Positions 1 to 998 of a stretch of DNA of 13,799 nt are shown piece by piece (within the stretch, counting starts at the first letter, position 1; each line of letters begins with the position of its first letter). Position numbers and translations under genes: made by a program. This DNA comes from Verrucomicrobiota bacterium. GTDB taxonomy: Bacteria > Verrucomicrobiota > Verrucomicrobiia > Verrucomicrobiales > DEV007. A model generated the notes under the pieces. It saw nothing but the letters and a program-made list of their open reading frames with translations. It was not told the DNA's origin and ran no database searches. Location: NCBI GenBank assembly GCA_045046875.1, contig JASFYY010000061.1, positions 1 through 13,799 of the forward strand, in the 5' to 3' direction.

Positions 1-164
1 GGCAGACGACGATTGGTAAGGGCAGCACGGTGGGGGCGAATGTTTTTCTGCGCCAGAGCGTGCCGGAGGGATCTTTTGTTTCCAACGAAGGAGAGTGTTT
101 GCGGGTGATCAATAAAAGCACGGGTGCTATTTTGCATGAATTTTCCGATACCCCGGCGATTTGA
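1..164 (+). CDS. cysE: Serine O-acetyltransferase (CysE/EpsC-type), C-terminal fragment; 5' end lies outside the window
   Basis: Manual translation of frame 3 gives QTTIGKGSTVGANVFLRQSVPEGSFVSNEGECLRVINKSTGAILHEFSDTPAI*, TGA at 162-164. This matches the hexapeptide left-handed beta-helix end TxIGxGSx(V/I)GxNV(F/W)LxxSVPxxS of serine acetyltransferases. Not in the ORF track. Confidence 0.75.
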   Translation, partial: QTTIGKGSTVGANVFLRQSVPEGSFVSNEGECLRVINKSTGAILHEFSDTPAI

Positions 165-216
165 TTTTGCTGGTTTCGAGCATGCTATACGACATTTTTA
201 CCCATAAGATCTAAAC

Positions 217-242
217 CGCGGATTTCACGGATGAACACGGAT
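217..242 (+). repeat. Triple heptamer direct repeat C(A/G)CGGAT
   Basis: CGCGGAT (217-223), CACGGAT (226-232) and CACGGAT (236-242), separated by 2 and 3 nt, in the cysE-sprT intergenic region. Confidence 0.75.
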
Positions 243-305
243 AAAAAGAAAGTGAAAGTTAGCCTATGTGCCTCATCCTCCAGCATTAGCTCTAGGTGTG
301 TATAT

Positions 306-316
306 TGTGGTAAAGT
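306..316 (+). promoter_or_regulatory. Putative extended -10 promoter for the SprT gene
   Basis: TGTG-g-TAAAGT (TRTG-n-TAnnnT), about 30 nt upstream of ATG 348. No convincing -35. Confidence 0.45.
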
Positions 317-347
317 GTGAGTTTTGAATGATAAAGGGTTAAAGTAG

Positions 348-998
348 ATGGAGTTGTCTTGTCGTCAGTTGGAGCTTTTTTCTGACGAGGAGGTAATTGC
401 TGACGTTTTGGTGAGTGAAGCGGGCTCGTCGGAAGAGCGGGAGAGTAAAACGGATGAGGCATCGTGTGAGCTTTTACTGACGGGGCTCGATGAGGCTTGT
501 TTAACCAGGCATGTGGCTAGCTGGCTGTTGCCTCTGCAACTTGCAGAATTGATGGGAGGTGTCCATGTGAAATGGAATTCACGGCTGCAAACGACGGCAG
601 GACGAGCTCACTATGCGGAAAGTCGAATTGAGTTGAACCCACGTTTGATAGAGATCGCGGATTTGGCGGAAATCGAGCAAACGTTGAAGCATGAATTGGC
701 CCACTTGGTGGCTTATGAACGCTGCGGCAAATTACAGCGGCGGCGCTTGCAGCCGCACGGAGTGGAGTGGCGTGAAGCGTGTGTGGATCTGGGCATTTCT
801 GGAGAAGCACGTTGCCACGAATTGGCTCTGCCGGGACGGCGTATACGGAGAAAATTTGCCTATACTTGCCCAGCCTGCACAGCGGTGATCGAAAGGGTGA
901 GGAAAATCAAGGGTTATGTTTCTTGTTACCCTTGTTGCAGGCAATACAGCGCCGGTCGCTACGACCGACGTTTTCAGTTGCTTGAGACGCGCTTGTGA
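348..998 (+). CDS. SprT-like zinc metalloprotease with C-terminal Zn-ribbon
   Basis: Contains WNSRLQTTAGRA, IELNPRL, HEXXH motif TLKHELAH, downstream PHGVEW (third His ligand) and CPAC...CYPCC zinc ribbon, all typical of the SprT family. Confidence 0.92.
   Translation: MELSCRQLELFSDEEVIADVLVSEAGSSEERESKTDEASCELLLTGLDEACLTRHVASWLLPLQLAELMGGVHVKWNSRLQTTAGRAHYAESRIELNPRLIEIADLAEIEQTLKHELAHLVAYERCGKLQRRRLQPHGVEWREACVDLGISGEARCHELALPGRRIRRKFAYTCPACTAVIERVRKIKGYVSCYPCCRQYSAGRYDRRFQLLETRL

What the first reader, a model, noticed from the sequence alone, without database searches (positions are those of the whole stretch)
348..998. SprT protease with an N-terminal beta-clamp-binding-like motif (QLELF): candidate bacterial SPRTN analogue for DNA-protein crosslink repair
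Seen: the protein begins MELSCR-QLELF (nt 366-380), then an acidic, probably disordered spacer (SDEE...SSEERESKTDEAS), then the SprT HEXXH protease and a basic segment with a CxxC/CxxC Zn-ribbon. An extended -10 (306-316) and a weak AAAGGG just upstream support ATG 348, so the motif is probably translated. Known: QL[S/D]LF-type pentapeptides in flexible tails dock proteins on the bacterial beta clamp (DnaN). Human SPRTN is an SprT protease plus Zn-binding domain, recruited through a PCNA-interacting motif to cleave DNA-protein crosslinks, whereas most bacterial SprT proteins have no assigned function. Inference: this could be a replisome-tethered, DNA-activated protease, meaning a bacterial replication-coupled crosslink-repair system.
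Basis: partly seen in the sequence, partly recalled or inferred. Interest (0 to 1): 0.8.

Follow-up and report, generated by a model that had tools for sequence, protein, structure and literature searches.

The report
Spartan-like protease with clamp-binding motif
This bacterial gene encodes a small zinc protease shaped like the human DNA-repair protease Spartan, and its floppy front end carries a conserved peptide of the kind that hooks proteins onto the DNA-copying sliding clamp, so it may be the so far undemonstrated bacterial enzyme that cuts away proteins stuck on DNA.

Summary
Observation confirmed. ORF 348-998 encodes a single-copy SprT-like zinc protease of Verrucomicrobiales. QLELF (366-380) must be translated if the first in-frame start is used: a stop precedes ATG348, and in 6 of 6 genus genomes ATG sits six codons before Q, with synonymous change inside the motif. 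A pentamer or hexamer clamp motif lies in the hypervariable tail of 56 of 88 divergent relatives (1.9 expected). The peptide models into the canonical pocket of the host DnaN (0.65; best control 0.04; mark reached by 116 of 157 solved, 2 of 215 mismatched pairs; may be memory). A published QLELF peptide binds two bacterial clamps. Human SPRTN is the top fold match for the protease half only. Lineages lacking this clade often carry a YgjP-type zincin with a similar motif. Against: the promoter and RBS evidence is not conserved, no repair-gene context or SOS box, the motif is lost in several lineages, and the gene is linked, once fused, to cysE. Clamp docking is likely (about 0.85); crosslink repair is inferred only (about 0.45). 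Not found in ten literature searches; this scan noted the same idea in five other genomes.

The parts
348..998 (+). Gene for a 216-aa SprT-like zinc metalloprotease, single copy in the genome
   Evidence: 37 of 41 genomes of the order sampled have a match
366..380 (+). QLELF, predicted beta-clamp-binding motif (aa 7-11)
381..479 (+). Disordered linker (aa 12-44), acidic here, variable in length and charge in relatives
480..827 (+). Minigluzincin protease subdomain (aa 45-160), closest solved fold human SPRTN
690..704 (+). HELAH zinc-binding and catalytic motif (H115, E116, H119); third ligand H137 at 756-758
   Evidence: invariant in 42 aligned sequences; HExxH in 120 of 120 and HGxxW in 119 of 120 homologues
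828..995 (+). Basic C-terminal metal-binding domain, CxxC-x15-CxxCC (C174, C177, C193, C196, C197), invariant Y172 and R183; putative nucleic-acid-binding module
3..164 (+). 3' end of a cysE/epsC-type serine O-acetyltransferase gene, the usual upstream neighbour
165..347 (.). Intergenic stretch enlarged in this genome only; holds a dispersed repeat (about 204-260), the -10-like element (306-316) and AAAGGG (333-338); not conserved

Best explanation
A cytoplasmic SprT-family zinc protease that docks on the beta sliding clamp by QLELF at the tip of a 35-residue flexible tether, touches DNA with its basic C-terminal zinc domain, and cuts proteins trapped on DNA near or behind the replication fork (covalent crosslinks or tightly stuck proteins) into short peptides that excision repair or bypass polymerases can handle. 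Shown by sequence: the motif is translated and selected, the active site is intact, the zinc domain is strongly basic. Predicted: binding in the DnaN pocket (about 0.85). Inferred by analogy with SPRTN: DNA activation and crosslinked substrates.
For: Start and selection: ATG six codons before Q in 6 of 6 genus genomes; over all pairs the motif codons show 30 synonymous and 5 non-synonymous differences against 8 and 61 in the five codons before and 6 and 64 in the five after. Breadth: 56 of 88 scorable 50%-identity representatives carry Q-phi-x-[LFM]-[FW] or the hexamer form in the tail, 1.9 expected from shuffled tails, 1 of 88 in the catalytic cores, 52 of the 56 within the first 20 residues; host background for a slightly wider pattern in the first 20 residues is 29 of 4223 ORFs. 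Both known motif forms occur (QL[SD]LF and Q-phi-x-L-x-L: PMC3919608 and bioRxiv 10.64898/2026.05.27.728225, passages seen). [quoted passage not shown] Model of residues 1-30 with host DnaN: score 0.65 in three runs, best of 3 controls 0.04, mark reached by 116 of 157 solved and 2 of 215 mismatched pairs, runs agree in at least 94% of contacts, partner pLDDT at least 55; residues 7-11 touch DnaN 171-176, 241-246, 319, 357-365, the host equivalents of the subsites described for E. coli (His175, Asn320, Met362, Pro363, Arg365; PMC6511837 passages). Host MutS ends in QLSLFS. Fold: SPRTN is the top match (Foldseek E 9.4e-4; VIA Z 10.9, rmsd 2.7, 110 aligned; profile E 1.1e-5). C-terminal domain net charge median +10 in 120 homologues. 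In 201 genomes of the class this clade (32) and YgjP-like zincins (88) overlap in 4, 14 expected, and one YgjP clade carries a like N-terminal motif (27 of 48 rows, relaxed pattern), which suggests one job done by two clamp-docked zincins.
Against: No biochemical or genetic datum exists. The complex model resembles many solved clamp-peptide structures and may pass from memory. Neighbours show no repair or replication genes; the common neighbour is cysE (50 of 116 loci, some of them the same genomes fetched twice). No SOS box of either pattern tried in the window's 400 upstream bases. The motif is missing in 18 of 111 tree rows, in several separate branches, and from the CysE-SprT fusions; 9 of 29 loci from the wider class lack it. 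The clade was found in only 32 of 201 genomes of the class. The fold match covers residues 43-160 only, and archaeal abylysin/selecase follow at Z 9.3. E. coli, which has an SprT-like gene (control), shows no clear proteolytic crosslink repair according to a 2026 review. The SprT/YgjP complementarity follows the family tree, so it counts as very few independent events.
Confidence: 0.45

Rival explanations
1. It docks on the clamp but does another fork job: regulatory cutting of a specific clamp-bound or DNA-bound protein (a translesion polymerase, a repressor, as the ssDNA-activated zincin PprI/IrrE does; recalled), or it is a metal-dependent nuclease or nucleotide hydrolase rather than a protease (YbeY-like zincins; UTP pyrophosphatase activity reported for E. 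coli YgjP, recalled).
For: All clamp evidence fits equally. The zincin fold is shared with YbeY (Z 6.4), PprI (Z 5.7) and ArdC (Z 4.6), though these lie near the background of that search. SPRTN itself also regulates translesion synthesis (PMC9240642 passages).
Against: The best fold and the only significant profile match in the PDB is SPRTN; HExxH plus HGxxW is the gluzincin protease layout and is nearly invariant.
Confidence: 0.33
2. The motif binds something other than DnaN or acts in cis (autoinhibitory pro-peptide, degradation tag, membrane-seeking amphipathic tip); the protease is unrelated to replication.
For: In some branches the motif runs on into an amphipathic stretch (QLEFRW-TSWF, QLDFF-SRLL) and departs from the textbook consensus. 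It is lost repeatedly.
Against: Q at position 1 is invariant in the 42 chosen rows and the alternation of 5- and 6-residue forms is the clamp signature; the single-chain model does not pack the tail on the protease; the same pentapeptide binds two clamps in vitro.
Confidence: 0.12
3. The protease serves cysteine or sulfur metabolism, for example by controlling CysE, and the clamp motif is incidental.
For: cysE/epsC lies directly upstream on the same strand in 50 of 116 loci, with one gene between in 4 more (in two of these a cysteine-desulfurase-type aminotransferase cluster was seen); three in-frame CysE-SprT fusions exist and lack the Q motif.
Against: The three fusions form one clade (SH-aLRT 91, quick tree), so one event, easily made from adjacent genes. 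More than half of the loci have other neighbours. No cysE within the short flanks of 70 YgjP loci. It does not explain selection on the motif.
Confidence: 0.07

Closest known systems
Human SPRTN (Spartan/DVC1), PDB 6mdw, 6mdx
   Same: SprT metalloprotease subdomain (VIA Z 10.9, rmsd 2.7, 110 aligned, 20% identity) followed by a zinc-binding subdomain and basic residues; a short linear motif for the sliding clamp in a disordered tail (PIP box in SPRTN; PMC9240642 passages).
   Different: Motif is N-terminal and of the bacterial DnaN type; no UBZ, SHP or long C-tail; 216 against 489 aa; the zinc domain is a CxxC/CxxCC ribbon that gave only Z 2.2 against the SPRTN ZBD.
Yeast Wss1 (WLM domain), PDB 5xbn, 5ln5
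   Same: Minigluzincin fold (Z 6.4 and 6.2), DNA-dependent crosslink protease as a functional model.
   Different: Wss1 lacks the zinc subdomain and is recruited through SUMO and Cdc48; weaker fold match.
Bacterial SprT equivalogs NF003421 (PRK04860) and NF003339 (PRK04351)
   Same: PF10263 domain plus a SprT-type zinc ribbon (PF17283 weakly in 34 of 57 C-terminal domains).
   Different: Scores 57 and 50 bits, far under the cut-offs 175 and 113; the match starts at residue 73-75, leaving the tail with the motif outside. A separate clade with no intermediate scores in the class sample.
Known beta-clamp clients (DnaE, PolC, Pol I, Pol IV, MutS, Hda)
   Same: Pentamer or hexamer motif in a flexible terminus; QLELF is identical to the B. 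subtilis Pol I core.
   Different: All are polymerases, repair nucleases or ATPases; no protease client appeared in my searches.
Archaeal minigluzincins abylysin, jannalysin, selecase
   Same: Protease core fold (Z 8.4-9.3).
   Different: About 105 residues, no zinc ribbon, no tail.

Membership tests
SprT-like family (PF10263) | Score over the Pfam gathering cut-off | tested here: met
   64.3 bits against 25.6
SprT-like family (PF10263) | HExxH with a downstream third His | tested here: met
   H115, E116, H119, H137 invariant in 42 rows; 120 and 119 of 120
NCBIfam SprT equivalogs (PRK04860, PRK04351) | Score over the curated cut-off | tested here: not met
   57 against 175 and 50 against 113 bits
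Beta-clamp-binding motif | Q-phi-x-L-F pentamer or Q-phi-x-L-x-L hexamer | tested here: met
   QLELF fits the general form quoted; E at position 3 departs from QL[SD]LF
Beta-clamp-binding motif | Lies in a flexible, exposed segment | tested here: met
   pLDDT 47-55 over residues 1-40, no secondary structure
Beta-clamp-binding motif | Conserved against a divergent background | tested here: met
Beta-clamp-binding motif | Physical binding in the DnaN pocket | not testable with these tools
   A model supports it (0.65, best control 0.04; 116 of 157 solved and 2 of 215 mismatched pairs reach the mark) but may rest on likeness to solved complexes
SPRTN-type DNA-protein crosslink proteases | SprT metalloprotease subdomain | tested here: met
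SPRTN-type DNA-protein crosslink proteases | ssDNA-binding ZBD subdomain (Y179, R185, W197 in SPRTN) | tested here: inconclusive
   Domain folded alone (pLDDT 92): 6mdx 156-214 aligns at Z 2.2, rmsd 3.7, 41 residues, tied with unrelated ribbons; no Foldseek match under 0.001. Invariant Y172 and R183 exist but were not mapped onto SPRTN residues
SPRTN-type DNA-protein crosslink proteases | Basic DNA-binding region | tested here: inconclusive
   Net charge +11 in aa 161-216, median +10 in homologues; charge is not binding
SPRTN-type DNA-protein crosslink proteases | UBZ, SHP and PIP motifs in a long C-terminal tail | tested here: not met
   The protein ends with the zinc domain at aa 216; it is not a SPRTN orthologue in architecture, at most an analogue
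SPRTN-type DNA-protein crosslink proteases | DNA-activated proteolysis and a crosslinker phenotype | not testable with these tools
   needs biochemistry and genetics

The most novel reading that the evidence does not exclude
Bacteria have a dedicated replication-coupled crosslink-protease pathway: a zincin protease docked on DnaN by a short motif, supplied in Verrucomicrobiae by either this SprT clade or a YgjP-type clade in mutually exclusive fashion, and functionally ancestral or parallel to eukaryotic SPRTN-PCNA.
Probability: 0.4. Interest if true: 0.9.

Novelty: new variant of a known kind. Interest (0 to 1): 0.7.

Why it matters
A review dated October 2026 states that there is no clear evidence in bacteria for dedicated proteases that repair DNA-protein crosslinks (PMC13705206, passages seen; SprT, Wss1 and clamp do not occur in its main text). 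A small, soluble, single-gene candidate with an intact active site, a SPRTN-like fold and a clamp motif whose exact core is known to bind DnaN makes that question testable with a peptide assay and two point mutants. Even if the substrates are not crosslinks, a protease client of the beta clamp would be a new class of clamp partner and would give a first functional handle on bacterial SprT and YgjP-like proteins.

Tried and rejected
Promoter and RBS as support for the start: present but not conserved. Motif rarity in the host proteome: at chance level. SOS control: TGTTC-N4-GAACA (recalled from Erill et al. 2016, which I did not see) has no match with up to 2 mismatches in window 1-400 and its five perfect genome matches are not at lexA or recA; CTGT-N8-ACAG, which matches upstream of host lexA and recA with one mismatch, is absent from window 1-400 and found once among the relatives' upstream stretches scanned; the contig starts inside cysE, so this genome's cysE promoter was not seen. 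Repair-gene neighbourhood: none among the 24 commonest neighbour clusters sent to Pfam, 8 of which had no family. Fold of the zinc domain: no clear match, which shows neither difference nor novelty. Longer fused forms by word search: none scored, although fusions exist, so that search is weak. Phage collection: no match. Expression: no RNA holder listed, no evidence either way. Host DnaE, DinB and RarA could not be found with my short recalled patterns, so only MutS served as an in-genome positive control. SprT versus YgjP profile comparison: only the 35 columns around HExxH align, probability 14%, so these are distinct families. The intergenic repeat does not fold better than shuffles (z 0.91). 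The careful tree did not finish; the quick tree was used. Earlier-finding look-ups by sequence, place and YgjP words returned nothing.

Full report
What is there. The frame 348-998 (+) encodes 216 aa starting MELSCRQLELF. A TAG at 345-347 directly precedes the ATG. The protein is PF10263 SprT-like (64 bits, cut-off 25.6) but scores well under both NCBIfam SprT equivalogs. It is the only copy in the 5.6-Mb genome. Named relatives are Verrucomicrobiales and other Verrucomicrobiota. It has three parts: a disordered tail (aa 1-44), a zincin protease subdomain (45-160) with H115-E116-H119 and H137, and a basic CxxC-x15-CxxCC domain (161-216, net +11). HExxH was found in 120 of 120 listed homologues, HGxxW and the cysteine pattern in 119 of 120. 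There is no hydrophobic signal stretch at the N-terminus (read from the sequence).

Is the motif more than chance? In one proteome, no: QL[SDET][LF]F occurs 16 times against 10.4 in shuffles, QLELF twice against 2.0. Across relatives, yes. In all 6 genomes of the genus an ATG lies six codons before Q; pairwise, the five motif codons differ 30 times synonymously and 5 times non-synonymously, the five codons before 8 and 61 times, the five after 6 and 64 times. Among the 150 best 50%-identity representatives, 88 could be scored (62 dropped: no active-site match, tail under 20 or over 140 residues, or no plausible first residue); 56 of 88 carry a pentamer or hexamer motif in the tail, 1.9 expected from shuffles, 1 of 88 in the cores, and 52 of the 56 sit within the first 20 residues. 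A slightly wider pattern hits the first 20 residues of 29 of 4223 host ORFs. With wider patterns the count was 65 of 78 parsed GTDB loci (80 fetched) and 20 of 29 loci from the wider class. The variants (QLELF, QLDFF, QLSFEL, QLELDF, QLLLPF) span both published forms, QL[SD]LF and Q-phi-x-L-x-L (PMC3919608 and bioRxiv 10.64898/2026.05.27.728225; passages seen).

Does it fit the clamp? The host DnaN keeps the pocket motifs ATDGRRL and MPMR invariant over 27 sequences. Residues 1-30 folded with it scored 0.65, 0.65 and 0.64; the best of 3 controls scored 0.04; the mark is reached by 116 of 157 solved complexes and 2 of 215 mismatched pairs; runs agree in at least 94% of contacts and the partner's pLDDT is at least 55. 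The most confident contacts are Q7-F11 with DnaN 171-176, 241, 246, 319 and 357-362, equivalent to the subsites described for E. coli (PMC6511837, passages). Many clamp-peptide complexes are solved (one search lists 39 related clamp sequences), so this pass can come from memory: it shows likeness, not binding. [quoted passage not shown] Host MutS ends in QLSLFS, so the host uses the ordinary code.

Does it look like SPRTN? The protease half does: 6mdw/6mdx lead the Foldseek list (E 9.4e-4), the exhaustive alignment (Z 10.9, rmsd 2.7, 110 residues, model 43-160) and the profile search (E 1.1e-5); archaeal minigluzincins follow at Z 8.4-9.3 and Wss1 at 6.4. The zinc domain, folded alone, gave no clear match; SPRTN's ZBD appears at Z 2.2 among unrelated ribbons, and PF17283 matches 34 of 57 members weakly. 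Its role in DNA binding is therefore inferred from charge (median +10 in 120 homologues) and from SPRTN, where ZBD and basic region gate the protease (PMC7534798, PMC9240642, bioRxiv 10.64898/2026.04.29.721615; passages). It works like SPRTN at best; it is not a SPRTN by architecture.

Distribution and context. 37 of 41 genomes sampled from the order match, but only 32 of 201 genomes sampled from the class hold this clade (E under 1e-60; three more weak matches). The small-genome genus g21 has a different SprT subfamily in which I saw no such tail by eye. On a quick tree of 111 cores the motif is spread over all main branches (90 rows) and absent in 18 rows on several branches; three CysE-SprT fusions form one clade (pattern widened on these data). 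Neighbours vary and include no repair genes; cysE/epsC is directly upstream in 50 of 116 loci. No SOS box was found.

An unexpected parallel. In the same 201 genomes, YgjP-like zincins (PF01863) occur in 88 and overlap the SprT clade in only 4 (14 expected). Of 70 YgjP loci fetched (about two thirds of the places listed) 66 were parsed: 13 carry the motif by the pattern (1.2 expected) and 28 by a pattern relaxed after seeing the data (3.0 expected), 27 of them in one 48-row clade and 1 in the other 18-row clade. The YgjP copies I examined from three of the four double genomes fall in the motif-poor clade; a second copy in G397 and the partial copy in G407 were not examined. This is the pattern of non-orthologous displacement, but it follows the family tree and may be one or two events.

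How it most likely works. DnaN left on DNA at or behind a stalled fork binds QLELF; the tether lets the protease reach nearby protein; the basic zinc domain engages DNA and licenses cleavage; trapped protein is cut to a peptide that excision repair or bypass can process. Motif translation, selection and an intact active site are shown by sequence; clamp binding is predicted (about 0.85); DNA activation and crosslinked substrates are inferred (overall 0.45). Rivals: clamp-docked with another job (0.33), motif with another receptor (0.12), cysteine metabolism (0.07).

Novelty. Ten full-text searches (listings and abstract starts seen) gave no paper on a bacterial SprT with a clamp motif; most subscription journals are outside that library, and supplementary tables of motif surveys were not read and could list such proteins. 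A 2026 review says there is no clear evidence for dedicated crosslink proteases in bacteria (PMC13705206, passages); PMC7511601, PMC7782752, PMC6219452 and PMC6511836 (passages) add nothing on bacterial SprT. This scan has noted the same idea in five other genomes; these are unchecked notes and not independent support. Verdict: a real, conserved feature; a new variant of a known kind; interest 0.7.

Noticed in passing
window:204-260: A dispersed repeat with the core CACGGATGAACACGGAT in the cysE-sprT gap; 33 other BLAST hits in the host genome, absent at this place in five genus relatives; no stable fold.
   Followed up: partly
L187 (G009), L188 (G010), P0139: In-frame CysE-SprT fusion proteins of about 500 aa, one clade; the Q motif is gone (P0139 keeps SLDLF in the linker).
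   Followed up: yes
L229-L285 (for example L255:162-989:-, L243:1363-2124:+): YgjP-like (PF01863) zincins of other Verrucomicrobiae lineages carry N-terminal clamp-like motifs (QLDLF, QLNLF, QLDFLF, QQDLF) and almost never share a genome with the SprT clade.
   Followed up: partly
L033:1501-2595 (host DnaN): The pocket reads TDGRRL, with Arg174 where E. coli has His175, invariant in 27 relatives; in the model it touches E9 of QLELF and may explain the clade's preference for Glu at position 3.
   Followed up: no
G000:C124:12600-12640 and G000:C2 upstream of recA: Host lexA and recA carry CTGT-N8-ACAG-like boxes with one mismatch, not a perfect copy of the pattern I recalled for Verrucomicrobia.
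   Followed up: partly
L291 (G000:C100:18614-21673): AddB-like nuclease with QIFLDW near its N-terminus, a possible further clamp motif.
   Followed up: no
L290 (G000:C65:14315-15652): KpsS-like capsule protein begins MTHQIELDF, a motif look-alike in a protein with no evident link to DNA; a reminder that single matches mislead.
   Followed up: partly
L097, L103: A class-V aminotransferase (cysteine desulfurase type) sits between cysE and sprT.
   Followed up: no
window:1005-13556: The rest is housekeeping: OmpA-domain protein, RseP-type M50 protease, ispG, trmB, ComEC/Rec2, a beta-barrel porin, argS and a PTS EIIA protein; strong positive GC skew throughout.
   Followed up: no
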